DNA from: Nitrosomonas sp.
GTDB taxonomy: Bacteria; Pseudomonadota; Gammaproteobacteria; Burkholderiales; Nitrosomonadaceae
DNA: 61,462 nt
Assembly: GCA_021774055.1 (NCBI GenBank)
Contig: JAJFJL010000102.1
Location: forward strand, 1-61,462
Direction: 5' to 3'
Shown: in pieces, positions 14,173 to 45,421 of the stretch
Numbering within the stretch: the stretch's first letter is position 1
How the letters are laid out: every line of letters starts with the position of its first letter
Made by a program: the position numbers and the translations under genes
Notes under the pieces: generated by a model
Databases searched by the model: none
What the model saw: the letters and a program-made list of their open reading frames with translations, nothing else
Told to the model about the DNA's origin: nothing

Positions 14173-15423
14173 TTACTTACCATAAACAGGAAAAGCTGCA
14201 CATAGTGCCTTAGCTGATTCTGCAACACGTGCAATTACTGTTTCGTCACCAGGTGATTCCAATACATCCGCAATCAAATTAGCTAATTGCTCAGATTCAA
14301 TTTCTTTAAAACCACGGGTAGTTATTGCAGGTGAACCAATACGGATACCACTAGTAACAAACGGCTTCTGCGGATCATTAGGAATAGCGTTTTTATTGAC
14401 AGTAATATGTGACAATTCCAGCGCAGCTTCTGCGTGCTTACCGGTAAGCTCCATAGCGCGAAGATCAACTAAGAACATATGACAATCAGTATTCCCAGAG
14501 ACAATTCGCAATCCACGTTGGGCTAACACTTTCGCCATAACACGTGCATTCTCAATCACTTGTTCTTGATAAACCTTAAATTCACTACTAGCCGCCTCTT
14601 TGAAAGCAACCGCTTTAGCTGCAATCACATGCATCAAAGGTCCACCCTGAGTTTGCGGAAAAATTGCTGAATTTAGTGCTTTTTCATGCTCTGGCTTGGC
14701 CATAATAATACCGCCGCGTGGCCCACGTAATGTTTTGTGCGTAGTACTAGTTACAAAATCTGCAATACCAACTGGGTTTGGATAAAAACCAGCAGCCACT
14801 AAGCCAGCGTAATGTGCCATATCAACAAATAAATAAGCACCAACTTCATCCGCAATCTTACGGAAGCGTTTCCAATCAATGATTCTTGAATAAGATGAAG
14901 CCCCGGCAACAATCATTTTTGGCTTATGCTCATGTGCTAAACGTGCAACTTCTTTGTAATCAATTTCTTCTGTATCAGGATCAAGCCCATAACCAACAGA
15001 ATGAAATATTTTGCCACTAAAATTAACCGCAGAGCCATGGGTCAAATGACCACCATGGGCTAATGACATTCCTAGCAAGGTGTCGCCAGGTTTTAAGGCT
15101 GACAGATAAACTGCTGCGTTTGCTTGTGAACCAGAATGTGGTTGAACATTTACATATTCAGCACCAAAAAGAGATTTTAAGCGGTCAATTGCAAGCTGCT
15201 CAACAATATCAACATGTTTACAGCCACCATAATATCGTTTGCCAGGATAACCTTCAGCATACTTATTAGTTAATACGGATCCTTGTGCCTCCATAACAGC
15301 TGGACTGGCATAGTTTTCCGAGGCGATCAACTCAATATGATCTTCTTGACGTTGTATTTCGCCGGTTATTGCTTGCCATAAATCTGGATCAACTGTTGCG
15401 ATCGTTTGCTTCTGAGAAAACAT
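14173..15423 (-). CDS. glyA: Serine hydroxymethyltransferase
   Basis: [21 protein letters not shown] and [12 protein letters not shown] motifs. Confidence 0.99.
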
Positions 15424-15585
15424 GGTGAGATCAGTCCTCTAAAATTTTTTAAAGCGAGAAAATGCGTATCTTACCATCAACCGTAGAAACAGAAATATAC
15501 TCTTTGTTGATATTAGCATTGTCCTTTAATACTTGGGCTACCAACTTAAGACGGGACAAAACTTGTAATTAGGAAACTCCCCCTC

Positions 15586-15898
15586 GTCATTCCTGCTAGA
15601 AACATGCAAGAATGACGGTGGGTAGGCATTGAAGGATGCCTAATTTATTTCATGCACGTTCCATAGTTCAATCGATACCTATGATATGCAGGGCTAAAGC
15701 CCCGCTTCCAACATAAATTAATAATTTGAATTTGGAATAGAATCAGGTGGCAGTTTATTTTATATATGGAGTGATGATAATTGATACCATTGGAACCTGG
15801 GCTTTAGCCCAGCTAAAACAGCTATGTAACTGTTTACATAAAGCAGAAGATGGGCATAAGGTACTAGTTGCCTAATTTATCCCATGCACGTTCCTTAG
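15586..15898. repeat. Repeat cluster upstream of the KAP NTPase
   Basis: Hairpin CGTCATTCCTGC...GCAAGAATGACG, TGAAGGATGCC, two copies of CATGCACGTTCC, and an inverted pair GGGCTAAAGCCC / GGGCTTTAGCCC. Confidence 0.65.
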
Positions 15899-15932
15899 CA
15901 TCTCTTCAACTACAAATTAAAGGTGATTTGAT

Positions 15933-17339
15933 TTGGGAAATCATTCGAGCAGCAACGACTTACCGACACTTGACGCATTGCCTAGCACTAAATCTTTTAT
16001 AGAACGTTTGGCAGAAGATATCAGTAATTCCCCTTCACCAAAAACTTTGGCGATTACTGGTTATTGGGGGTCAGGTAAAACTTCCGCGCTGGCACAATTG
16101 TATAAGGAGTTAACCAACGTTGTCCCACCTGGGTTTGAGGACTCAAGCACCGAACAAGAAGACCAGGATCACCTTGGCATATGGTTTGAAGCATGGCGCT
16201 ATCAACATGAACCAGTACCTATAGTGGCACTATTGCACTGTATTAAGAGTAATTTTTCTGCCAGAAGTAAATTTGTCGATAAAGCAGGTAAACTAATCAA
16301 TATAGCTATATTAGGCGCTATTGCGGTTCTAGATGGGGTTATTAAAACTGCTGGAATTGATAAGCTGCAAGCGACAGGTGAAAAGTATGAGCAAGATAAT
16401 CTGCTCAGTCGCCTGTCCAGCGATCAGATCAATGATGCGCTTAAACAAGCTATTGATGTAATCCTGAAAGAAAATAAGCAAGAAGGTAAAAAACTAATTG
16501 TTTTTATTGATGATTTAGATCGTTGTGAACCTGAAACAGCTTACAACTTGTTAGAGGGAATTAAGATTTACCTGAATATTCCTAATTGCACGGTAGTTAT
16601 GGCAATTGATCAAGAACAGATTGAATCTAGCCTAAAAAGTAAAGTAGGTGATAATGGTTTCTATGGCGTTGAATATCTGGAGAAACTGTTTCAAGATGCT
16701 CATCGACTACCGATACCTGGCGCGGAAGAACGTAGTGTATTTTTAATTGAACAAATAAAGTCACTTAAAGGTATGGATGAATCTAAGATGAACAATTATG
16801 TTAATGCTTTACAGAAGGTTCTAGGCGAATATGATTGCTTACCTGCCAACCCCAGACGTTTGAAGATGTTATCTAATCGGATTACTGCATTTTTTCGCTC
16901 GGTGCAGCCTGAAAAGATAGACAAACCACAGGAAGTTATCACCGAGCATCATGATGAAATTTACGCCATTGCCATCTTGGTGGTTGCTTACTTATCAGTT
17001 AGTTATCGAAGACTATATGAAAGACTAGAATCTAAGCCAGAATTTATTCATGAGTTATTTGAATTTAGTAACGTTGAACTTAACAGTCATGATCATGAAA
17101 ACAGCTTGTCAGTATTTTATGAGTTTAATAAAAATAATGCACAATCTAAAACATTAGTTGAGCATCCTAGTGGTTTAGGCGTATTTCGACTTAAAGCTTT
17201 TTTTACTACAGGCCCGAATTCTATTTCCAGCAAGTATAAATTAGAAGATCAAATGCTAGGCGATATAATGCACCAGATAATCAAACAATTTAATTGTCCA
17301 TCTGAAAACCAAGCTGATGTAGGTAATTCAGGGGAATAA
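15933..17339 (+). CDS. KAP-family P-loop NTPase
   Basis: Walker A AITGYWGSGKTS, WFEAWRYQ, Walker B VFIDDLDRC, YLEKLFQ and NPRRLK. TTG start with AAAGGTGA upstream. Confidence 0.9.
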   Translation: MGNHSSSNDLPTLDALPSTKSFIERLAEDISNSPSPKTLAITGYWGSGKTSALAQLYKELTNVVPPGFEDSSTEQEDQDHLGIWFEAWRYQHEPVPIVALLHCIKSNFSARSKFVDKAGKLINIAILGAIAVLDGVIKTAGIDKLQATGEKYEQDNLLSRLSSDQINDALKQAIDVILKENKQEGKKLIVFIDDLDRCEPETAYNLLEGIKIYLNIPNCTVVMAIDQEQIESSLKSKVGDNGFYGVEYLEKLFQDAHRLPIPGAEERSVFLIEQIKSLKGMDESKMNNYVNALQKVLGEYDCLPANPRRLKMLSNRITAFFRSVQPEKIDKPQEVITEHHDEIYAIAILVVAYLSVSYRRLYERLESKPEFIHELFEFSNVELNSHDHENSLSVFYEFNKNNAQSKTLVEHPSGLGVFRLKAFFTTGPNSISSKYKLEDQMLGDIMHQIIKQFNCPSENQADVGNSGE

Positions 17340-17340
17340 T

Positions 17341-17470
17341 GGGTATCCTTCATATCTTACTAAAGTAGTTTGCACTTTTGATTTGATGCCTATTTACACT
17401 CTCTCGTCATTCCTGCATGTTTTTAGCAGTAATGACGAAGTGGGTGTTTCATAACAACTATGTTGGACAA
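17341..17470. repeat. Family G end plus GTCATTCC hairpin element
   Basis: GGTATCCTTCATAT...GTTTGCACTTTTGAT (inverted G end), then TGCCTATTTA...CGTCATTCCTGC...AATGACG...GTGTTTCATA, matching 53935-54030. Confidence 0.65.
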
Positions 17471-17476
17471 CGTTTT

Positions 17477-19906
17477 ATGCCAATTAATATAAAAAAACCA
17501 TTGAAGGTAACTAATCCACTACCAACCTATGAAAAAGCTGATAATAAAAACTTTATTGACCTAACTCGCTCAGCGTTAAGTACCTACAATAGCGAAGCAA
17601 TTAAACAATTCGGCTACTTGGATAACCAAGGATTGGCATTAGATGATAACGAAGGTGATAATAGTGGGCCAGTTTTTATTGATAGCTTGTATGTTTTACC
17701 GGGTGCTAGCAGTGTCCGTCAAGCACCTGAAGAGCTGGCACAACAAGAAATAGATGGTAAAACTGAGCAAGTTATTCCGGGTGAGGAGAATGAATTATTC
17801 AGCAATATTGCTAATTTAATCTGGCGCAATCCTCGCTTAACTTTATTAGGTGATCCTGGGGTAGGAAAAACTACGCTAATCCAGTGGTTGGTTTGTTCGC
17901 TTTGTCATTGGAATAGCAATCATGCGCAGCAGCAGATTGGTAAACTTTTTCCGCTGGTATTGACCGCACGCCGATTGCCGCAAAATATTGCCAAGGTTGA
18001 TAAGTTAGATAATGAAGCATTTATTAGCCAATTATTAACAACCCAAGGTCAACAACTTGCCTCACTGATCTTAGGAAATCAGCATGCCAATGAAACTTTG
18101 TATCAACTACTAGATCTGGGACAGGTGCTTATATTGGTTGATGGTCTTGACGAAATTTCACCAGACACTAGCGCTTGGCTGAATACGCAACTACGTCAAC
18201 TACTAAGACAATATCCAAAACTACGTTTGTTAATGACTTCACGCGTGGTTGGCTTTAATGCCATAGAGTTTTGGCAGATAGATGTTGGTGGTGAATATCA
18301 AAAACAAAAGCAAGAAATTGCAGCAGATGAAGCCCAAAGACAGAATCAATTAAAAGATGATGCCATCAAGCAACAAGCTAATTTGCCAACAAATTATTTT
18401 TTAGCACCTTTTTCACCAAAGCAACGACAACAGTTTGCCAGCAATTGGGTGACCAATTATTTACCACCGAACCAGGAAAAACGGCAACAATTTATTGATA
18501 ATATTGCGTCGATTAGTCAACATAGTCTACAACTTAATGCTTTATCGCGAATCCCGGCACTACTTAATCTGATTTGTTTTATCCAATGGCGTCGAGGTAA
18601 GTTACCTAATGGCCGAGCTGAACTTTATCAGCGTATTGTTGAAACTTATCTAGTTGCTATGGATAGAGCTAGACAGATGGAAGCACAACTTAGTGATGAA
18701 TATGACTATCAGGATATTAAAAACTGGCTTGGCAAGCTTGCTTTACAACTGCATTCAGGTGAGTTGATTTGTGCTGGCGAGCAAGCGCAGTTAGCTAAAT
18801 TAAGTGAAGATAAACTTGAAACACTGCGTCATCAAGAAGCTGAAATCAAACCACAACGACTGACTCAGCTAAGTGAAGGAGAACTAAGAGAATTTTTGCA
18901 ATTACAACTTACTGAAGTAGTTGAGACGGATAGATTACAAGAACAGAGCGAACAGCTAATTGATTTTATTAAAAAACGTACCGGATTTTTAATTCCTAAA
19001 GGACAGATAAATGGTGAAGAGTATTTTGCTTTTAGCCATCTTTCTTTTCAGGAATATTTTGCAGCCTATCGTATCAGTAAGCACTTAGGTCAACCCATAG
19101 CTAATGATAGCTTAACTAAAAAAGGGTTATCAGACACAATATTGAATCCCTCCTGGGGTGAAATATGGCAACTAGCTTTTGAAGAGTTATCTTTTAGTGA
19201 TCATTCACGTAGCACAATTGAGCAACAACTAGAACGTTTGTTTCCTGAACCAAGCAGACAACTCAGCAATATTAGATTTTGGGAGGATTTTCCAGAACAA
19301 ATAAAGCTATATAGTAAAATTATTCTTAATCCAGCGGTTAAATTGGCGCGTAACAAGCGTCTTGTTCGGCAAAAAAAACTAGTCGTTGATTATTTGCAAA
19401 ATAATTGCCCTGCAGATGCGGCAGCTACTGCGGTGGTCAATCATTTACTCGCTAATTGGCAACAAGTTAGCGATATCTTGCTAGATTCCAAATCACTCTA
19501 TTTAACAGATAAAAAATTAACTACTTATTTGTGGCTTTGTCAGTTATCTGAACTAACAAAGCTTTATTTGAATGGGACACACATCACAGACCTAACGCCA
19601 CTGGCGCAGTTAAAGCAACTGACATGGCTTGATTTAAATCGCACAGACATAACAGAGCTGACGCCACTGGCGGAGTTAAAGCAACTGATATGGCTTTATT
19701 TAAGTCGCACAAACATCACAGACCTAAAGCCACTGGAGCAGCTAAAGCAACTGACAATACTTGATTTGAGTCGCACAGGCATCACAGGACTAATGCCACT
19801 GGCACAGTTAAAGCAACTGGCAGAGCTTAATTTAAGTCGCACAAACATCAGTGACCCAGAAACACTAAAACAATTAAAGTCAAGAAAGGTCATGATTTTC
19901 CAATAA
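17477..19906 (+). CDS. NACHT NTPase with C-terminal leucine-rich repeats (NLR-like)
   Basis: Walker A LLGDPGVGKTT, Walker B ILVDGLDEI, LLMTSR, winged-helix FSHLSFQEYFAA and five 22-aa LRRs. Start moved to ATG 17477 because the upstream codons lie in a repeat. Confidence 0.9.
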   Translation: MPINIKKPLKVTNPLPTYEKADNKNFIDLTRSALSTYNSEAIKQFGYLDNQGLALDDNEGDNSGPVFIDSLYVLPGASSVRQAPEELAQQEIDGKTEQVIPGEENELFSNIANLIWRNPRLTLLGDPGVGKTTLIQWLVCSLCHWNSNHAQQQIGKLFPLVLTARRLPQNIAKVDKLDNEAFISQLLTTQGQQLASLILGNQHANETLYQLLDLGQVLILVDGLDEISPDTSAWLNTQLRQLLRQYPKLRLLMTSRVVGFNAIEFWQIDVGGEYQKQKQEIAADEAQRQNQLKDDAIKQQANLPTNYFLAPFSPKQRQQFASNWVTNYLPPNQEKRQQFIDNIASISQHSLQLNALSRIPALLNLICFIQWRRGKLPNGRAELYQRIVETYLVAMDRARQMEAQLSDEYDYQDIKNWLGKLALQLHSGELICAGEQAQLAKLSEDKLETLRHQEAEIKPQRLTQLSEGELREFLQLQLTEVVETDRLQEQSEQLIDFIKKRTGFLIPKGQINGEEYFAFSHLSFQEYFAAYRISKHLGQPIANDSLTKKGLSDTILNPSWGEIWQLAFEELSFSDHSRSTIEQQLERLFPEPSRQLSNIRFWEDFPEQIKLYSKIILNPAVKLARNKRLVRQKKLVVDYLQNNCPADAAATAVVNHLLANWQQVSDILLDSKSLYLTDKKLTTYLWLCQLSELTKLYLNGTHITDLTPLAQLKQLTWLDLNRTDITELTPLAELKQLIWLYLSRTNITDLKPLEQLKQLTILDLSRTGITGLMPLAQLKQLAELNLSRTNISDPETLKQLKSRKVMIFQ
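19544..19873 (+). repeat. Five tandem 66-bp units encoding internalin-type LRRs
   Basis: Units start at 19544, 19610, 19676, 19742 and 19808; consensus LKQLTxLxLSRTxITDLxPLAQ. Confidence 0.92.
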
Positions 19907-20019
19907 TAAATTTAGTGACCCACTTCTATTATTGATAACAAAATCAAACTAGCATCATCACTTCTATTCACCCCAGTAAACCAGTAGAATAATACTTTTA
20001 ATTTACTTTATTTTTTATT

Positions 20020-20745
20020 GTGTCTAATAACTTACAAAACTCAGCATTGCAGCCATTATCCGAAGAAGAATTAAATGAGCTTAAGGAACTTCTGTTGGCT
20101 GATAGCCTTTCAGATGAAGCAATGCTGATGTCTACATTAGATGGTTATCTTACTGCGATTGCATCTGCACCAGTCAGGTTAAATCCAAGCGAATGGATGC
20201 CTGGTATATGGGGGCCTACTAAAGAAGATATGCCCACATTTGCAACCACAGAGCAAGCTGAACATACAATTAAATTAATAATCCGGCATTTAAATGGAAT
20301 TATTAATATCCTAAATAAATCTCCAGAAGATCTTGAACCTATCCTTGATAAAACTGAGCATCAATCAAAAGTATATATTGACGGTGAGATGTGGGCCTAT
20401 GGATATATGGCTGGTGTTGAATTATGCCATGACCAGTGGCAACCTATTTTTGATGATGCAGATGGAGTAAAATCCATGCTTCCAATTTGTCTGCTTGGCG
20501 GAGGTGCTAACATACCTATAAAAGAATTAGTTGAACTTGTCAGAACACCCGAGCAGCGTGAAGAATTTTCCATGCAAATCCCTGCCTGCGTGCTTCAGAT
20601 ACGTTGTTTTTGGTTATCTTATACAAAAGATCTCCCTGCTAAACGTGGCACAGTTAATACAATTCATCGAGATCAACTAAAAATCGGACGTAACGATCCA
20701 TGTTCTTGCGGTAGTGGGAAGAAGTTTAAGAGGTGTTGTGGATAA
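20020..20745 (+). CDS. UPF0149/YecA-family protein with C-terminal SEC-C motif
   Basis: LDGYLTAI...[16 protein letters not shown] and [21 protein letters not shown]. Confidence 0.88.
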
Positions 20746-20749
20746 TATG

Positions 20750-22501
20750 TTAGCGCTTAATAAATATTGAACCTGACCTTTTGTTATTTTGCGAACGATG
20801 TAGAGCCAAGTGACGTGGTGTCCAGGCATGTGGAATTTTATGGACGAAGTTATAACGTGCCACATGATAACTGGGATCAAAGCCATAGAAATTAAGCTGC
20901 ATTTTGTGTAGTTCTTCATCACGGTAATTTTGTAATGGTTTTATTTGATCATCCAGTAAACGCTGTTTTACTTTATTTTGCAGAAATTCTTCATACTTAG
21001 GATGCTGTGCCAGCTTTTCAGCAAGCTGTTCGATTGTTTTCTTAAAATGAATAATATCAAGTGCAAAGCAATCATCAATAAGCCCAATTTGCTGCGCTTC
21101 AAGCGCACTAATTGGCAAGCGATTCTGAATCAATATACTTGCATTAGCTTGGCTTACGCGGCGCGGTAAAAGATAAGTCCAATATTCAGAACCATATAAA
21201 TTCCCCATGCTTTTGTAGTGAGGGTTTAACAATACAGCTTTGCGTGCATAAACCTGATCTGCTGCCAGCGACAGGAACACACCGCCAGCCCCAGCATTGC
21301 CTTGTAATACTGCAATAGTTAATAAATTATCCGTGGTAATGATTGATAGTGCTAGATCATTCATGGCATTAATATTGCGCCAGGATTCATCTGCCGGACT
21401 ACTAGCATTTTCTATATGATTTAGATGAATACCATTTGACCAGAAATCTGTGCCACCCATTAGCACCATTACCTTTACGCCACTATTAGTGGCAGTTAGG
21501 TAGGCAGCCCGTAAGCGTTGGCATTGTTCGCTATCCATAGCACCGTTGTAAAATGTAAAGTGCAAATAGCCAATATTATTTTTCTGCTCAAACCAAATAT
21601 CCTGATAGGTTTCGTTAACACGCGGTGCGCAAGGAGCAAGCGGTATTTCTGGTATATCAGCAAGCTGCCCTTTGAGTGCCAAGGTGGCAGATAACTTAAT
21701 ACCTAATTCGCCAGTTTCGTCACTCTTTTTTTGTTTCAAGTGACCAATCCATATTGCGCCATCGTATGTGGCACGACAGATAGCACCATTACGTTTGGCA
21801 ATTATTGTGCCTGGCTGTTGGTCGCTATTTAATTTGGTTTCAAGACAAGCATCAAATAAGTAATATGGCGTGCCATAGATGGTATCCAGTACACCGGGAA
21901 AACCATCTGCCGCATAAATTTTTCTAAGTATGATTTGTGATCGATCATGTTGCCAGTCAATGGCGCGATCAATTTGTTTTATAGAAGGTTGCCAGCGTCC
22001 TAAAATATCAGCACGCGAATAGTCCAATGGCTTAGGTGTATATTTTTTAGATTGGAAGCGTGACAAGGCTTTGCGTATGGCCATCACTGCGGCATCAACA
22101 ACCTGCTTCCGATACAAGCTACTTTTCTTTTGCAACTGCATAGGAAAGGTTTCAGCTGCCCAGATATCGCCGGCATCCATTGCACCATTGGCCTGCAATA
22201 TGGTCACACCCCATTCCCTGCGCTGATGCATAATCGCCCAGTCTAGAGCGGAAGGACCTCGGTCACCGATAATGCCAGGATGTACAATAAAACAAGTATG
22301 CTTACGCCACACCGTCTCAGGAATAGCGCGTTTTAAAAAAGGGGCAATAATCAGTGCAGGCTGAAAAAGTATTACAGCCTGCTCGGTGGTCGCGTCGTTG
22401 ATATCAAATTCAATAGATATTTCATGCCCATCCCTTGTCAATTCAACAAACAAGCGCTGGGTCATGCTGTTGAAGCTGTGGGTTAGAAACAGGATTTTCA
22501 T
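20750..22501 (-). CDS. hypX: Hydrogenase maturation factor HypX/HoxX (formyltransferase plus crotonase-fold domains)
   Basis: MKILFLTHSFNS, HPGIIGDRGPSALDWAI, FYNGAM and GNLYGSEYWTY; follows hypE. Confidence 0.93.
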   Translation of the reverse strand: MKILFLTHSFNSMTQRLFVELTRDGHEISIEFDINDATTEQAVILFQPALIIAPFLKRAIPETVWRKHTCFIVHPGIIGDRGPSALDWAIMHQRREWGVTILQANGAMDAGDIWAAETFPMQLQKKSSLYRKQVVDAAVMAIRKALSRFQSKKYTPKPLDYSRADILGRWQPSIKQIDRAIDWQHDRSQIILRKIYAADGFPGVLDTIYGTPYYLFDACLETKLNSDQQPGTIIAKRNGAICRATYDGAIWIGHLKQKKSDETGELGIKLSATLALKGQLADIPEIPLAPCAPRVNETYQDIWFEQKNNIGYLHFTFYNGAMDSEQCQRLRAAYLTATNSGVKVMVLMGGTDFWSNGIHLNHIENASSPADESWRNINAMNDLALSIITTDNLLTIAVLQGNAGAGGVFLSLAADQVYARKAVLLNPHYKSMGNLYGSEYWTYLLPRRVSQANASILIQNRLPISALEAQQIGLIDDCFALDIIHFKKTIEQLAEKLAQHPKYEEFLQNKVKQRLLDDQIKPLQNYRDEELHKMQLNFYGFDPSYHVARYNFVHKIPHAWTPRHLALHRSQNNKRSGSIFIKR

Positions 22502-22511
22502 TTTGTGGGGA

Positions 22512-23573
22512 TCAGCAAATTCGAGGCAGTTGTTCACCACTAAGCCAGTCAACTACACGCTTACCGCCAAATGAGGTGGTCATTTGCACGAAACAATGCG
22601 GGTCTTCGGTAACTTCACCAATAATAGCAGCCTTGCTTCCTAATGGATGTGCGCGCATGGCGGTCAACAAATCATTAGCATCTTCGGGTGCACAAATTGC
22701 CACCAATTTGCCCTCATTCGCCACATAAAGTGGATCAAAGCCCAGAAACTCACAAGCGGCACTAACTTGTTGCTGAATAGGCAAGGTGCTTTCCTGCAAC
22801 ATCATGCCAACGCCTGATTGACTTGCAATCTCATTTAATACTGTTGCTAGTCCACCACGTGTGGGGTCACGTAGTACACGAAGATTGGGGGTGACCGCAA
22901 TCATCGCCGCTACCAAGTCATGTAATGCTGCGGTATCAGATGTGATGCTGGTATGAAAACTTAGATTTTCACGTAATGACATAATTGCGATGCCGTGATC
23001 TCCCAAGGTTCCAGATACCAATATTTTGTCACCTGGGCGAGCACGATCAGCAGATATATGAATTCCTTCGGGTACGATACCCAAGCCAGTAGTAGTGATA
23101 AAGACTCCATCTCCTTTACCTTTTTCAACTACTTTGGTGTCACCAGTGATGATTGATACATTGGCATTTTGTGCCGCCTGCGCCATAGAATGAACAATAC
23201 GTTTAAGATCAACAAGCGGGAAGCCCGCTTCCAAAATAAAGCTTGCCGCTAAATGACAAGGCCGTGCACCAGACATTACAACATCGTTAATGGTGCCGTT
23301 TACCGCAAGATTGCCAATATCACCGCCAGGGAAAAATAAGGGGGTAATTACATGACTGTCGGTAGACATCACCATACGCCCATTGGCTACTGGAAAGCTG
23401 GCCTGGTCATTCATTTGACGCAAGTACTTGTTATCAAAAGCAGCCAAAAATAGCTGCTCAATCAACTGCGCCATACTGCGCCCGCCACCGCCATGGGTCA
23501 TCTCAACTATGCCATGTTTAAAATCAATAGCGCGGCTATAACCAGGCTTAATTTTTCCACCTGCTTGGGTCAT
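22512..23573 (-). CDS. hypE: Hydrogenase maturation protein HypE
   Basis: HGGGG, PLFFPGGDIG, DPTRGG and C-terminal PRIC. Confidence 0.97.
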   Translation of the reverse strand: MTQAGGKIKPGYSRAIDFKHGIVEMTHGGGGRSMAQLIEQLFLAAFDNKYLRQMNDQASFPVANGRMVMSTDSHVITPLFFPGGDIGNLAVNGTINDVVMSGARPCHLAASFILEAGFPLVDLKRIVHSMAQAAQNANVSIITGDTKVVEKGKGDGVFITTTGLGIVPEGIHISADRARPGDKILVSGTLGDHGIAIMSLRENLSFHTSITSDTAALHDLVAAMIAVTPNLRVLRDPTRGGLATVLNEIASQSGVGMMLQESTLPIQQQVSAACEFLGFDPLYVANEGKLVAICAPEDANDLLTAMRAHPLGSKAAIIGEVTEDPHCFVQMTTSFGGKRVVDWLSGEQLPRIC

Positions 23574-24697
23574 GCTGTCTCCCGAAAGCGTCCGTAACTA
23601 TAATGTGCTGCACAAGCACCTTCTGATGACACCATACAGGAGCCTATTGGATTATCTGGCGTACAAACAGTACCAAAAATTTCACAATCTTGAGGTCGTT
23701 TTACGCCCCGCAAAATAGCACCGCAGGCGCAAGCTTTGTTATCTGGAATAGATAGTGTAGGAATTTGAAAACGTAATTCGGCATCAAAATCAGCATAGTC
23801 TGATTTAATTCGTAGCGCACTATAGGGCACCAATCCTAGGCCACGCCATTCAAATGTACGGCGTAATTCAAATATTTCTGCTACTAACAATTGCGCCTTA
23901 AGATTTCCTTCACAAGTGACCGCACGGGAAAATTCATTTTCAACTTCGGCTCGTCCTTGATTTAACTGACGCACTAACATCAAGATCGCCTGCATAACAT
24001 CTAGCGGTTCAAAGCCAGCAATCACCACAGGCTTCTGAAATTCTTCGGCAAAGTATTCATAAGGTCGACTACCAATGATAGTCGATACATGCGCAGGACC
24101 AATAAAACCATCTATTGATACCAAGCCAAGCTGACGCACTTCTGGTGATTGTAGAATATGTGAGATGGCTGATGGTGTTAACACATGATTGCAGAACACC
24201 GTGAAGTTGGACAGGCCGATGGTTTTTGCTTGTTTAATCGCAACGGCAGTTGGTGGGGTTGTCGTCTCAAATCCAATGGCAAAAAATACCACTGGTTTAT
24301 CAGGATTCTGTTGTGCAATCTTAAGTACATCCATAGTGGAATAAACTATACGTACATCCGCACCACAAGCTTTTTCTTTTAGCAAACTATTACCCCGCAC
24401 GGTCGGAATCCGTAATAGATCGCCATAACAGCACAGGATTAGCCCGGGGATTTTTGTCAATTGCAAGGCATTCTCGATTCGTCCGACAGGTAATACGCAT
24501 ACCGGACAGCCAGGACCATGGATCATGCGCACATTGGCAGGTAACAAATCAACAATGCCATAGCGTGAAATAGCATGGGTATGACCACCGCAAAATTCCA
24601 TTAAATGATAGTTTCGTTGTGTATCTACCTCTGCGGCGATATTGGCAGCAATCTTTTTTGCCAGCACACCATCACGATACTCATTAATATATTTCAT
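23570..24697 (-). CDS. hypD: Hydrogenase maturation protein HypD
   Basis: MEFCGGHT, GPGCPVC, GFETT and CMVSSEGACAA motifs. Confidence 0.97.
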   Translation of the reverse strand: MKYINEYRDGVLAKKIAANIAAEVDTQRNYHLMEFCGGHTHAISRYGIVDLLPANVRMIHGPGCPVCVLPVGRIENALQLTKIPGLILCCYGDLLRIPTVRGNSLLKEKACGADVRIVYSTMDVLKIAQQNPDKPVVFFAIGFETTTPPTAVAIKQAKTIGLSNFTVFCNHVLTPSAISHILQSPEVRQLGLVSIDGFIGPAHVSTIIGSRPYEYFAEEFQKPVVIAGFEPLDVMQAILMLVRQLNQGRAEVENEFSRAVTCEGNLKAQLLVAEIFELRRTFEWRGLGLVPYSALRIKSDYADFDAELRFQIPTLSIPDNKACACGAILRGVKRPQDCEIFGTVCTPDNPIGSCMVSSEGACAAHYSYGRFRETA

Positions 24698-41260: not shown

Positions 41261-44200
41261 ATGAATAAAGAACTTATTGCTCAGTTTGATCAACTTCTTC
41301 CATACGAACAAGATATATTGTTTGCATTGTCTATTTGCTACGCACCAATTAACCAAACCGAATTTAAGAAACTTCTAAAAAAATCTAATTACTTTTCAGG
41401 CCAAAGCTGCAACATGATTGGCAAGTCGCTACGCGACAGGCTAGCTAGTCTAAGGTTAATTATAGTAAACAATAATACTACCTGGAGATGTTCTGATGAA
41501 ATTTCAGAATATCTGATAAGAAAAGCTGCTAGTAAGTCAATATTTTTCAATAAGATTGTTGCCGCTGCAGAGCATATTGTAGAAAGATTTAGTTACAATC
41601 AAAGTCATCTTGAAGAAATTAGGAAACTACGTATTTATTTATACCAACAAGATGAAACTAAATTTGCTGCACAGCTAAAAAGAATTAAGCAAGGACATAA
41701 TGAATATTTAATTGATATCCTGGAGAGGCTTTTTTTTAATTATTTTAATGCAGATTGGTTTAATACCCTGTCGGCTAACATCAGAATGTTGGTCTTGCAG
41801 GAATATCAACTGATGATGTACTTAGATGTTAAAGATTGTACCTTGCAATACCAATTAATGAATACCTGTTTCAACGAAACTAAAGAGCATACACCGGCGG
41901 TGACTCATCAATATATCAGGCTACGTTTGATTCGTGGTGATATACAAGGCTTAGATGCTATTTTACAAAATGATAACTCTGCAACTGCTTTTATATTACT
42001 TGGTATGTTGCGATTTATGCAAAATCGTAATGATGAATCTATTGAGGCCTTTAATATATGTATCAAACAAACAAAAAAAGAAACCCGGAAACGTAATATT
42101 GCCCTAAGTGGCTTAGGTGGATATTTTTATAAGCTGGCGTTATTACGCAGTAGGACTGACGCTGATTTACTTCACCTTAGGGAGCAGTTAGAGCTTGGTT
42201 GTAAAGGAGTTATGTCGCAGAATTATTTTGGACTAGCTGAAGAAAGATTGCTAATAGGGTTAGATGTTTATCAAGCAAAAATTAAGGTGAAAGATTTATT
42301 TGCGACTTCGCTGTTTAAATACCGTAGTTTTGTTTATGACCAATTATTTTTTGTATTGTTACTTTATTGGCTAGATGAAATAGATAAATTTTTGAAGAAA
42401 AACATTTCAGTTGTACAAAATTTAAATTCATTTTGCAAAGAAGCTGATAGAAATGGCTATACCTGGTTTGCCGCAGTTAGTTCAAATTTACTAGAAAAAT
42501 CAAACGCGGCTAATCAAACAACCAAAGAAATTGCTAAAAAACATATAAAATCTGAGTTTAACGCCATTATTGATTTGTTACCGCGTATTGCACCTTGGGA
42601 ACGTGCATTAGAAGCATTAACTCGTTTAGGCGATAGTGATTCATCAGGAGCTGGGCTATCAGAAAAAAGTGACCAACTACGTATGATTTGGACCGTTTCT
42701 TTAAATGATGAAAGTGTTGAATTAAGCGCTAGAGAACAAAGAATGGGGAAAAATGGTCGTTGGACCAAAGGTCGCCCAGTATCAGCAAAACGTTTATATG
42801 AAAATATAAAAGACTTCGATTATTTAACCGAACAAGATCGCCTTATTTGCAGCTATATCAAAAGAGATCGTGAAACTAGCTACTATGGTTTTGGCAAAGA
42901 GAGTTATTACTTAACTGAGCATGCAGCTATTGAAGCCGTTGGTCACCCTAATATCTACTGGAGTGATGCGGCTAGCTTTGATACGCCAGTTAATATTTCG
43001 ACAGCAAGTTTACAATTATTAGTTTCAGAAAAGAAAGCTAAATTATTGATTGCTCTATCCCCCTTTCCACAAGAGTATGACGAATATATTTTTGAAAGAA
43101 CGGCCAGTAATGACATTATAGCTTATAAGGTTGATCCTCAACATCATCAGGTTGCTGATATTCTGGGTGAGAAAGGACTTTTAGTACCTAAAAAAGCTAA
43201 ACAACAAGTGATTGATTCTATTTCATCTATTGCTTCAATGTTAACCGTGCAATCAGATGTTGGTGGTCAATCCAGTCATGCAGAAACAGTCACCGCTGAT
43301 CCTCGATTACATATTCATTTACAACCGCTTAGTGAAGGTATTCAGGTTGATATTTTTGTGCAACCGTTTGCTCAAGGTGGGCCGGTATACAAACCAGCTA
43401 AAGGTGGTGCGACAGTATTAGCTGAAATTGATAATAAACCGTTACAAACAACCCGTGATTTTGCTCAGGAAAAGAAATATCTAGATCAAGTTTTAGAAAG
43501 TTGCCCGGGACTATATCACTCTATTGATGCCAAGTGGCAACTAGACGACGCAGAAATGGCGCTAGAAGTATTGTTGCAATTACAAGAACTAGATGATTTT
43601 GCAGTGTTGGAATGGCCTAAAGGTAAGGCGATTAAAATTAGTCGAGAGACCGGTTTTTCCCAGGTGCAGTTTTCTGTGCGTAAAGAAAAAGATTGGTTTA
43701 GCCTTTCTGGAGAAATTCAAGTTGATGATGGCCAAGTGATGGAGATGCAAAACCTGATGGGCTTATTAGCAGCAAGCCCGGGGCGTTTCTTAAAACTTGA
43801 AGATGGACAAATTATCGCGCTAACACATGAGCTACGACAACGTTTTGATGATTTGTCCGGTTTAGGTGAAGCAAATGGTAAAAATTTAAGGTTTCATCCA
43901 TTGGCGGCACAAGCACTGGATGATGTTACCGATGGCATGGCCGTTAAAGCCAGCAAGCATTGGAAAGCGCAATTAAAAAAGCTTGCTGAAATGACAGAAC
44001 TAGATCCCCAGTTACCAACTACTCTACAGGGTGATCTACGTGATTATCAATTACAAGGCTATCAATGGCTAGCAAGGATTGCACACCTGGGAGCTGGAGC
44101 TTGTTTAGCCGACGACATGGGATTAGGTAAAACTGTTCAAGCACTAGCCTTGATTTTATCTAGAGCACCTGAAGGTCCAACACTTATCCTGGCACCTACT

Positions 44201-45421
44201 TCTGTTTGTAACAATTGGTTAGAAGAAACACAGCGTTTTGCCCCCACACTTAAAGCTCGTTATTTTGGTATTGGTGATCGGCAACAGCAAATTGATGATG
44301 CCGGGCCATTCGATTTGGTCGTATGCAGTTACGGATTATTACAAACTGAATCTGAAAAACTTATAGCAAAGCAGTGGCACACTATTGTTGCAGATGAAGC
44401 GCAAGCAATAAAAAATACCCTCACAAAACGCTCCAAAGCAGCTATGGGTTTACAAGGTGATTTTAAAATAATCACTACCGGAACTCCGATAGAAAATCAC
44501 TTGGGTGAATTATGGAATTTATTTAATTTCATTAACCCTGGCTTACTTGGTTCATTAAAAAAATTTAATGAACGTTATGCACAAAAAATTGAAAATCAGA
44601 AAGATAAAACTACTCAGAAACAGCTTAAGAAATTACTCCAACCTTTTATCTTAAGACGATTAAAAAATGATGTGTTAACCGAATTACCCCCACGTACAGA
44701 AGTTACCCTGCATATTGATCTTAGTGCAGAAGAACGCACCTTATACGAAGCTTTGCGGCGCAATGCGATGCAGACTATTGCTGAATCTAAAGAACAAGCC
44801 ACTCCCCCTGGACAACAGCAGTTAAAAGTACTTGCAGAAATCATGAAATTACGCCGTGCCTGCTGTCATCCCAAGCTGGTGTTAGCAGAAAGCGAGATCA
44901 GTAGTTCTAAATTACAAGCGTTTGAAGAATTGGTTGATGAACTGATATCGAATCATCATAAGGCCTTAGTATTTAGCCAATTTGTGTCACACTTAACTTT
45001 AATTCGGGAACTGTTAGATAAAAAAGGTATTAGCTACCAATATCTAGATGGTTCAACCCCCATGACTAAACGGAAAACTATTGTTAATGACTTTCAATCT
45101 GGCAAAGGTGATTTGTTTCTAATTAGTTTAAAAGCTGGAGGATCCGGTTTAAATTTAACTGCGGCTGACTATGTGGTGCACATGGACCCTTGGTGGAACC
45201 CAGCGGTAGAAGATCAAGCCTCAGACCGTGCCCACCGTATGGGACAGAAGCGCCCAGTAACTATTTACCGTTTAGTGGCAAAAGACACTATTGAAGACAA
45301 AATTGTCGACTTACATCGACATAAACGAGACTTAGCGAATAGTTTATTAGAGGGCGGGGAGGTCAGTGGCAAAATGTCGGTTAAGGATATGATGGGGTTG
45401 ATTGAGCAGATGGACAACTAA
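41261..45421 (+). CDS. SNF2-family (SF2) ATPase with a long N-terminal region
   Basis: LADDMGLGKT, DEAQ, TGTPIEN, LVFSQF, SLKAGGSGLNL, WWNPAVEDQA and RAHRMGQ motifs. Confidence 0.93.
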   Translation: MNKELIAQFDQLLPYEQDILFALSICYAPINQTEFKKLLKKSNYFSGQSCNMIGKSLRDRLASLRLIIVNNNTTWRCSDEISEYLIRKAASKSIFFNKIVAAAEHIVERFSYNQSHLEEIRKLRIYLYQQDETKFAAQLKRIKQGHNEYLIDILERLFFNYFNADWFNTLSANIRMLVLQEYQLMMYLDVKDCTLQYQLMNTCFNETKEHTPAVTHQYIRLRLIRGDIQGLDAILQNDNSATAFILLGMLRFMQNRNDESIEAFNICIKQTKKETRKRNIALSGLGGYFYKLALLRSRTDADLLHLREQLELGCKGVMSQNYFGLAEERLLIGLDVYQAKIKVKDLFATSLFKYRSFVYDQLFFVLLLYWLDEIDKFLKKNISVVQNLNSFCKEADRNGYTWFAAVSSNLLEKSNAANQTTKEIAKKHIKSEFNAIIDLLPRIAPWERALEALTRLGDSDSSGAGLSEKSDQLRMIWTVSLNDESVELSAREQRMGKNGRWTKGRPVSAKRLYENIKDFDYLTEQDRLICSYIKRDRETSYYGFGKESYYLTEHAAIEAVGHPNIYWSDAASFDTPVNISTASLQLLVSEKKAKLLIALSPFPQEYDEYIFERTASNDIIAYKVDPQHHQVADILGEKGLLVPKKAKQQVIDSISSIASMLTVQSDVGGQSSHAETVTADPRLHIHLQPLSEGIQVDIFVQPFAQGGPVYKPAKGGATVLAEIDNKPLQTTRDFAQEKKYLDQVLESCPGLYHSIDAKWQLDDAEMALEVLLQLQELDDFAVLEWPKGKAIKISRETGFSQVQFSVRKEKDWFSLSGEIQVDDGQVMEMQNLMGLLAASPGRFLKLEDGQIIALTHELRQRFDDLSGLGEANGKNLRFHPLAAQALDDVTDGMAVKASKHWKAQLKKLAEMTELDPQLPTTLQGDLRDYQLQGYQWLARIAHLGAGACLADDMGLGKTVQALALILSRAPEGPTLILAPTSVCNNWLEETQRFAPTLKARYFGIGDRQQQIDDAGPFDLVVCSYGLLQTESEKLIAKQWHTIVADEAQAIKNTLTKRSKAAMGLQGDFKIITTGTPIENHLGELWNLFNFINPGLLGSLKKFNERYAQKIENQKDKTTQKQLKKLLQPFILRRLKNDVLTELPPRTEVTLHIDLSAEERTLYEALRRNAMQTIAESKEQATPPGQQQLKVLAEIMKLRRACCHPKLVLAESEISSSKLQAFEELVDELISNHHKALVFSQFVSHLTLIRELLDKKGISYQYLDGSTPMTKRKTIVNDFQSGKGDLFLISLKAGGSGLNLTAADYVVHMDPWWNPAVEDQASDRAHRMGQKRPVTIYRLVAKDTIEDKIVDLHRHKRDLANSLLEGGEVSGKMSVKDMMGLIEQMDN

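What the first reader, a model, noticed from the sequence alone, without database searches (positions are those of the whole stretch)
15933..19906. KAP NTPase plus NACHT-LRR pair: candidate NLR-like defence system
Seen: two co-oriented accessory genes between glyA and a yecA-like gene. The first is a KAP NTPase with intact Walker motifs. The second is a NACHT-WHD protein ending in five LRRs, with only about 120 aa and no recognisable effector before Walker A. Established: bacterial NACHT/STAND proteins (bNACHT, Avs) and KAP NTPases (PifA) act in phage defence, and NACHT+LRR is the animal NLR layout, whereas bacterial sensors are mostly TPR, WD40 or HEAT. Inference: an LRR sensor signalling in trans to a KAP partner, which has a hydrophobic segment (LINIAILGAIAVL). 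Caveat: a repeat lies in the 137-bp gap between the genes.
Basis: partly seen in the sequence, partly recalled or inferred. Interest (0 to 1): 0.82.

Follow-up and report, generated by a model that had tools for sequence, protein, structure and literature searches.

The report
Bacterial NLR with separate KAP partner
An animal-NLR-like NACHT-LRR gene with no killing domain of its own sits directly behind a KAP-family ATPase gene, a pairing conserved in at least nine bacterial phyla and in prophages, and the two likely form an undescribed anti-phage system in which the NLR-like protein would sense infection and the KAP ATPase would act as its separate effector.

Summary
Observation confirmed: KAP NTPase (15933-17339) and effector-less NACHT-WHD-LRR (17477-19906), both with intact, invariant catalytic motifs. 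The pairing is real: 57 non-redundant KAP→NACHT pairs from nine phyla, median gap 3 bp, congruent trees (Mantel r 0.93), and 4 prophage copies in cargo positions. Two lines of evidence point to KAP as the output. First, other KAPs are fused into the N-terminal effector slot of NACHT and NB-ARC proteins. Second, 12 of 14 natural lesions hit KAP, which is only 35% of the DNA. Against: neighbours are not enriched in defence genes (36/367 vs 4/37), and KAP has no recognisable toxic domain. The gap repeat is a host dispersed element. NACHT-LRR alone is already known in bacteria (bNACHT16). I found no paper describing the pair, but key supplements were unreadable. This scan noted the same system on other DNA three times before. 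Verdict: new variant of bacterial NLR immunity; function untested.

The parts
15933..17339 (+). KAP-family P-loop NTPase, 468 aa, no accessory domain; inferred effector/output
   Evidence: Pfam PF07693 117.9 bits; best PADLOC hit PDC-S20 114.9 bits, then PifA and QatA; predicted fold closest to RADAR RdrA, Z 17.1, rmsd 5.0, 316 aligned
16059..16082 (+). KAP Walker A, GYWGSGKT
   Evidence: G43, W45, G46, G48, K49, T50 invariant in 30 of 30 and at least 90% conserved in 50
16293..16331 (+). Hydrophobic stretch LINIAILGAIAVL in the KAP helical insert; not a conserved TM helix
   Evidence: 13 residues between K120 and D134/K138; 3 of 54 KAPs reach KD 1.6; only weakly amphipathic, mean Z 0.76; low pLDDT
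16497..16526 (+). KAP Walker B, IVFIDDLDRC
   Evidence: F191 and D193-C198 invariant in 50 of 50
17340..17476 (.). Intergenic gap filled by a host dispersed repeat; hairpin core about 17394-17446
   Evidence: 158 BLAST hits in G000, core covered about 129 times, one 138-bp copy at 82%; folds at z -2.8; no Rfam match
17477..19906 (+). NACHT-HD1-WHD-HD2-LRR protein, 809 aa, no N-terminal effector; inferred sensor
   Evidence: Pfam NACHT and LRR; AF2 model pLDDT 83 with best Foldseek hits NLRC4, NLRP3 and NOD2, E about 1e-14 to 1e-13
17849..17872 (+). NACHT Walker A, GDPGVGKT
   Evidence: P127, G128, G130, K131 invariant in 50 of 50
18137..18154 (+). NACHT Walker B, VDGLDE (D[GAS]hDE signature)
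   Evidence: D222, G223, D225, E226 invariant; signature defined in Kibby et al.
19031..19057 (+). WHD motif FSHLSFQEY with H521, inferred equivalent of NLRC4 H443
   Evidence: H521 invariant in 50 of 50; H443 role; equivalence inferred from motif position
19553..19882 (+). Five 22-aa internalin-type LRRs
20020..20745 (+). yecA-like UPF0149+SEC-C gene; neighbour, not part of the conserved pair
   Evidence: Pfam; matches PADLOC candidate PDC-S12 at 162 bits; PDC-S12 was not hit by any of 367 neighbours of homologous pairs

Best explanation
This is a conserved, mobile two-gene cassette, a KAP ATPase followed by an effector-less NACHT-LRR protein, that likely works as a split bacterial NLR immune system in which the NACHT-LRR would sense an invader and the KAP would carry out the response. 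Shown: architecture, intact catalytic motifs in both proteins, tight linkage, co-evolution, patchy distribution and prophage carriage. Inferred steps: (1) the variable LRR face binds a phage protein; (2) the NACHT swaps ADP for ATP and oligomerises as NLRC4 does; (3) the oligomer recruits or nucleates a KAP ring, probably a heptamer as for RdrA and QatA; (4) activated KAP arrests or kills the cell, most plausibly by draining ATP and/or disturbing the membrane as reported for PifA, giving abortive infection. Step 4 is the weakest.
For: Linkage: the 24 best of 80 GTDB KAP loci, and 36 of 80 overall, have the NACHT directly downstream. All 22 metagenome NACHT loci scoring above 500, and 36 of 79 overall, have KAP directly upstream. 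In whole-genome searches of two families (251 and 331 genomes), 20 of 20 strong NACHT matches have KAP upstream, and 20 of 22 fetched KAP places of at least 245 bits have the NACHT downstream; the other two are one split by a contig end and one decayed remnant. Co-evolution: Mantel r 0.93 (best of 2000 permutations 0.15), and 27 of 37 supported KAP splits are in the NACHT tree. Paired KAPs form one clade, support 0.976. Effector slot: KAP-NACHT, KAP-NACHT-FGE, KAP-NB-ARC-TPR and trypsin-KAP-NB-ARC-TPR fusions are 4 of 28 long hits, and KAP-related NTPases are listed as variable effectors in APE systems. Lesions: 12 of 14 fall in KAP, which is 35% of the bases of 91 loci (P 1.5e-4); among stops and insertions alone it is 7 of 7. 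Sensor-like variation: LRR identity is 62% against 86% for the core in 27 close homologues, with 6-12 repeats and peak entropy at the exposed strand positions. LRRs are replaced by low-complexity repeat-bearing helical tails in other members. 4 of 33 viral loci carry the pair: 3 between integrase and repressor or other prophage genes, 1 after a spanin gene. It is accessory: no close orthologue in 120 congeners, and 2 of 399 other genomes of the class carry it. Family knowledge: bNACHTs and Avs are anti-phage; PifA, QatA and RdrA are defence proteins.
Against: Neighbours are not enriched in defence genes: 36 of 367 hit PADLOC at E≤1e-10 against 4 of 37 genes of this window, and many hits on both sides are housekeeping homologues. 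This is a crude control from one genome. KAP has no nuclease, TIR or TM domain, so the toxic output is not visible. The fused KAPs lie outside the paired clade, so they are an analogy and not orthology. The lesion bias is weaker when NACHT-anchored loci are left out (4 of 5, P 0.055), and frameshifts may be assembly errors. QatA, a related KAP, is partly dispensable in its system. 5 of 37 supported KAP splits conflict with the NACHT tree. [quoted passage not shown]
Confidence: 0.5

Rival explanations
1. It is a defence pair, but KAP is a co-sensor, scaffold or remodelling ATPase that assembles or resets the NACHT oligomer, and the NACHT core (or a host factor it recruits) does the damage.
For: No toxic domain on KAP. 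RdrA is the ATPase partner of a separate deaminase, and QatA modulates range. Other KAPs carry their own LRR, pentapeptide or FGE sensor tails.
Against: The NACHT has no effector either. KAP occupies the N-terminal slot in fusions. A merely auxiliary gene would not obviously be lost preferentially.
Confidence: 0.2
2. It has the same sensor-to-KAP logic, but the trigger is not a lytic phage. It could be a plasmid or other mobile element, a competitor's or predator's protein, or a cellular stress signal.
For: No defence-island enrichment; the cassette sits among housekeeping genes. PifA is an F-plasmid protein. Many STAND clades are non-defence.
Against: Prophage cargo position in 4 loci, a fast-varying LRR face, and rare, patchy distribution typical of defence genes.
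Confidence: 0.2
3. Toxin-antitoxin or guard logic: KAP restrains an intrinsically toxic NACHT, or the reverse, and loss of the inhibitor fires the system.
For: Upstream-gene-first order with overlapping or abutting stop and start codons suggests stoichiometric co-translation.
Against: 11 loci have a broken KAP beside an unbroken NACHT frame (some cut by contig ends), including an isolate genome (L015), and one has a broken NACHT beside an intact KAP (L249). Neither single gene looks lethal.
Confidence: 0.05
4. Two independent single-gene defences (a PDC-S20-like KAP and a bNACHT) that merely travel together.
For: The best PADLOC hit of KAP is PDC-S20, whose S label I recall as marking single-gene candidates; bNACHTs are only rarely in operons.
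Against: Invariant order, 3-bp median gap and tree congruence across nine phyla; no strong NACHT of this clade was found without KAP.
Confidence: 0.05

Closest known systems
Bacterial NLR-related proteins (bNACHT; bNACHT16 with LRRs; Kibby et al., 10.1101/2022.07.19.500537)
   Same: NACHT signature, WHD histidine, C-terminal repeat sensor including LRR
   Different: No N-terminal effector, and an obligate, co-evolving KAP partner, whereas bNACHTs are described as only rarely in poorly conserved operons; KAP is not mentioned in the main text
Avs/AVAST STAND receptors (Lee et al. 2026, PMC13581612)
   Same: STAND switch with a variable C-terminal sensor
   Different: Tripartite single proteins with mostly TPR sensors; no KAP or LRR in the main text or the 7 readable supplements
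RADAR RdrA-RdrB (PMC9994260; PDB 8FNT, 8HR8)
   Same: RdrA is the closest solved fold to the KAP (Z 17.1); two-gene defence system with a heptameric ATPase
   Different: The partner is a deaminase, not a NACHT; RdrA is about 800 aa and two-layered; 12-16% identity
PifA, QatA, PADLOC PDC-S20 (KAP NTPases in defence)
   Same: Same KAP domain; HMM hits of 57-115 bits
   Different: Partial matches, far below the QatA cut-off (82 vs 600); different partners
Sensor/helper NLR pairs (NAIP-NLRC4; plant sensor-NRC; the pairing principle is recalled)
   Same: An effector-less NLR sensor depends on a second NTPase; the model resembles NLRC4
   Different: The second protein is a KAP, not an NLR; interaction not shown

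Membership tests
NACHT / bacterial NLR-related protein | Walker A plus D[GAS]hDE Walker B | tested here: met
   GDPGVGKT and DGLDE invariant
NACHT / bacterial NLR-related protein | HD1-WHD extension with conserved His | tested here: met
   P360, H521 invariant; model matches NLRC4
NACHT / bacterial NLR-related protein | C-terminal repeat sensor | tested here: met
   Five LRRs
NACHT / bacterial NLR-related protein (tripartite form) | N-terminal effector domain | tested here: not met
   124 aa before Walker A, mostly the helix-plus-strand element that also precedes unrelated NACHTs; no Pfam hit and no named Atlas hit at 0.9 or above; about 70 aa in L019, L021 and L024
NACHT / bacterial NLR-related protein | Anti-phage activity | not testable with these tools
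   Needs plaque assays
KAP NTPase | PF07693 above cut-off, Walker A/B, helical insert between them | tested here: met
   117.9 vs 20 bits; insert of about 100 aa
Membrane-anchored KAP / Tmn-type | Transmembrane helices in the insert | tested here: not met
   3 of 54 reach KD 1.6; conserved K120, D134, K138
QatABCD | QatA equivalog score and qatBCD neighbours | tested here: not met
   82.3 vs cut-off 600; no Qat hits among window genes
RADAR | RdrA plus adjacent RdrB deaminase | tested here: not met
   The partner is a NACHT; no RdrA or RdrB PADLOC hit; fold likeness only
PADLOC PDC-S20 | HMM score and coverage rule of the PADLOC model | tested here: inconclusive
   114.9 bits over profile 24-382 of 464; rule thresholds not available and no paper found
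Avs1-21 | Assignment to a named Avs clade | tested here: inconclusive
   No Avs hit in PADLOC 2.0, which predates Avs7-21; clade tables too large to read

The most novel reading that the evidence does not exclude
A bacterial sensor/helper NLR pair: an LRR-bearing, effector-less NACHT that on binding a phage protein nucleates a ring of a different NTPase class (KAP), which is itself the cell-killing effector. This would make KAP NTPases a recurring effector of STAND immunity (in trans here, fused in other lineages, reversed in a third) in a system missed by defence-island mining because it inserts among housekeeping genes.
Probability: 0.3. Interest if true: 0.85.

Novelty: new variant of a known kind. 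Interest (0 to 1): 0.62.

Why it matters
It would define how effector-less bacterial NLRs signal, give KAP NTPases (long linked to defence, mechanism mostly open) a switchable activator, and provide a compact two-gene model of NLR sensor-helper signalling with LRR recognition. It is directly testable: the invariant WHD histidine offers a known way to switch NACHTs on without a phage, so dependence on KAP can be read in one growth assay.

Tried and rejected
Complex prediction of NACHT 8-545 with KAP 5-460 gave no answer (score 0.00) and is not used as evidence either way. No RNA holder was listed for the locus, so co-transcription is untested. The promoter and terminator scan was at chance level (9 vs 14.1 and 5 vs 3.3). 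GC and GC3 of the pair (0.38-0.39 and 0.30) match the host, so there is no compositional sign of transfer. Insertion boundaries could not be set: 14 of 17 congeners have clpA-clpS upstream of glyA, none has the pair, and synteny differs. No match in the plasmid collection and only two weak partial KAP hits in GenBank phages. ESM Atlas searches of the NACHT N-terminus and KAP C-terminus gave only unnamed or sub-0.9 hits. A second NACHT in L109 is unrelated, at 25% identity. The wider NACHT tree with unpaired and fused members timed out and was not obtained; only the KAP tree was (9 of 105 rows dropped for lacking the motif pattern). An AMO search to place the host found nothing, and its control did not ring either, so the host lineage is not named. 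Rejected: a TM-anchored KAP, the gap repeat as part of the system, and NACHT+LRR as itself new.
Full report
Observation. Both ORFs are as described. The first is a 468-aa KAP NTPase with GYWGSGKT and IDDLDRC. The second, started at ATG 17477 as homologues indicate, is an 809-aa NACHT-HD1-WHD-HD2 protein with five 22-aa LRRs. Its AF2 model (pLDDT 83) is closest to NLRC4, NLRP3 and NOD2. Catalytic and switch residues of both proteins are invariant or at least 90% conserved across 50 homologues. The 124 residues before Walker A contain the helix and strand that also precede unrelated NACHT domains (compare P0214); no effector family was detected. The 137-bp gap is a dispersed host repeat. Homologous pairs have a median gap of 3 bp, and 52 of 57 are within ±50 bp, so the repeat is likely a local insertion. 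Whether it affects read-through is untested.

The pair is a conserved unit. A KAP-profile scan of GTDB (which stopped after 17 of 64 parts) returned 80 loci; 36 have the NACHT directly downstream, including the 24 best. A NACHT-profile scan of metagenomes returned 79 loci; 36 have KAP directly upstream, including all 22 that score above 500. The rest are more distant NACHTs or lack upstream DNA. In whole-genome searches of two families (251 and 331 genomes), all 20 strong NACHT matches had KAP upstream; 6 weaker matches confined to the later part of the model were not examined. Of 22 fetched KAP places of at least 245 bits, 20 were paired, one was split across contigs and one was a decayed remnant with no NACHT. 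The 32 named pairs among 57 span nine phyla. Trees of the two proteins agree (Mantel r 0.93; 27 of 37 supported splits shared, 5 in conflict); kinship alone would also give some agreement. Paired KAPs form one clade (0.976) with an LRR subclade (0.985). The other members carry helical tails, often with ARDLD/ALALA-type low-complexity repeats. The cassette is rare and patchy: no close orthologue in 120 congeners, 2 of 399 class genomes, and 8 of 251 and 10 of 331 in the two families, counting the centre genomes.

Which way the signal runs. Among 28 long KAP-containing proteins, four place KAP at or near the N-terminus of a STAND module: KAP-NACHT, KAP-NACHT-FGE, KAP-NB-ARC-TPR and trypsin-KAP-NB-ARC-TPR. 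That is the effector slot. These KAPs lie outside the paired clade, so this is an analogy. Two congeners carry yet another arrangement, NACHT-HEAT followed by KAP-pentapeptide. In 91 paired loci, 12 of 14 stops, frameshifts or insertions fall in KAP, which is 35% of the bases (P 1.5e-4); for stops and insertions alone it is 7 of 7. I left out duplicates (L116, L128, L236, L237, L239, L248), a 5′-truncated KAP (L134 counted as bases, not as a lesion), L025 and L129 (partner off or mostly off the contig) and L246. Without NACHT-anchored loci the count is 4 of 5 (P 0.055). The pattern fits a costly effector whose loss silences the system, and argues against either gene being an antitoxin.

Defence evidence is mixed. 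For: family precedent; LRR identity of 62% against 86% in the core among 27 close homologues, with 6-12 repeats and the highest entropy at exposed strand positions (repeat misalignment may inflate this); and 4 of 33 viral loci carrying the pair in cargo positions. Against: neighbours hit PADLOC no more often than this window's genes do (36 of 367 vs 4 of 37). The KAP's closest solved fold is RADAR RdrA (Z 17.1, rmsd 5.0, 316 aligned). The hydrophobic segment is not a conserved TM helix, so a pore-type output has no direct support; ATP drain or peripheral membrane damage are inferred from PifA and Tmn as described.

Literature. Eight searches found no description of a KAP plus NACHT two-gene system. 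What I saw of each paper: Kibby preprint, passages and section 6 (supplements closed, Cell version not held); Lee 2026, abstract, section 5, passages and a word search of 7 supplements (the large tables and main supplementary PDF were unreadable); Kaur 2021, passages in which KAP replaces a STAND NTPase in EAD systems; ParA preprint, passages; Tmn, Qat, DefensePredictor and DGR papers, passages; RADAR, search listing only. The unread supplements may list this clade. Three earlier notes of this scan describe the same system in other genomes; they are not independent support.

Verdict. This is a real, conserved and apparently undescribed variant of bacterial NLR-type immunity. The best reading, at about 0.5, is an LRR sensor with a KAP effector in trans. 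Interest 0.62.

Noticed in passing
window 20020-20745: The yecA-like gene matches PADLOC candidate PDC-S12 over nearly its whole length (162 bits), so it may be a second defence-related accessory gene at this site.
   Followed up: partly
window 15530-15900 and 17340-17476: Several families of short palindromic dispersed repeats, with more than 100 copies each in this genome (412 BLAST hits for the upstream gap), REP- or MITE-like; no Rfam match.
   Followed up: partly
L228:682-5606 and L229:4637-9177 (congeners G010, G017): A different NACHT-HEAT gene followed by an overlapping KAP-pentapeptide gene: the reverse order, from a separate KAP lineage.
   Followed up: partly
L051:6674-9079, L059:6767-9229, L065:6695-9094, L076:6773-9274: Single-protein KAP-LRR fusions (three Phycisphaerae and one Bipolaricaulota MAG), with KAP in place of NACHT in an NLR-like layout.
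   Followed up: no
P0214, P0215, P0218, P0222: KAP fused N-terminally to NACHT or NB-ARC modules; P0214 and P0215 have hydrophobic, TM-like inserts in the KAP part.
   Followed up: partly
L230:5704-8550 (G000:C245): The same genome has a solo NACHT with a hydrophobic N-terminal segment and ARDL-type C-terminal repeats, with no KAP in the fetched stretch.
   Followed up: no
L115:5050-5310, L121:770-925: Insertions of about 250 and 145 bp interrupt the KAP gene in two metagenomic loci; no terminal inverted repeats were evident.
   Followed up: partly
window 41261-45421: A 1386-aa SNF2 helicase with a strong PADLOC DpdE hit (607 bits) upstream of ftsK; the N-terminal 600 aa have no Pfam match at E≤1e-5.
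   Followed up: no
window 14173-24697: glyA and the hoxX-like/hyp genes are neighbours here, but 14 of 17 congeners checked have clpA-clpS upstream of glyA instead, so this site is rearranged in this lineage.
   Followed up: partly
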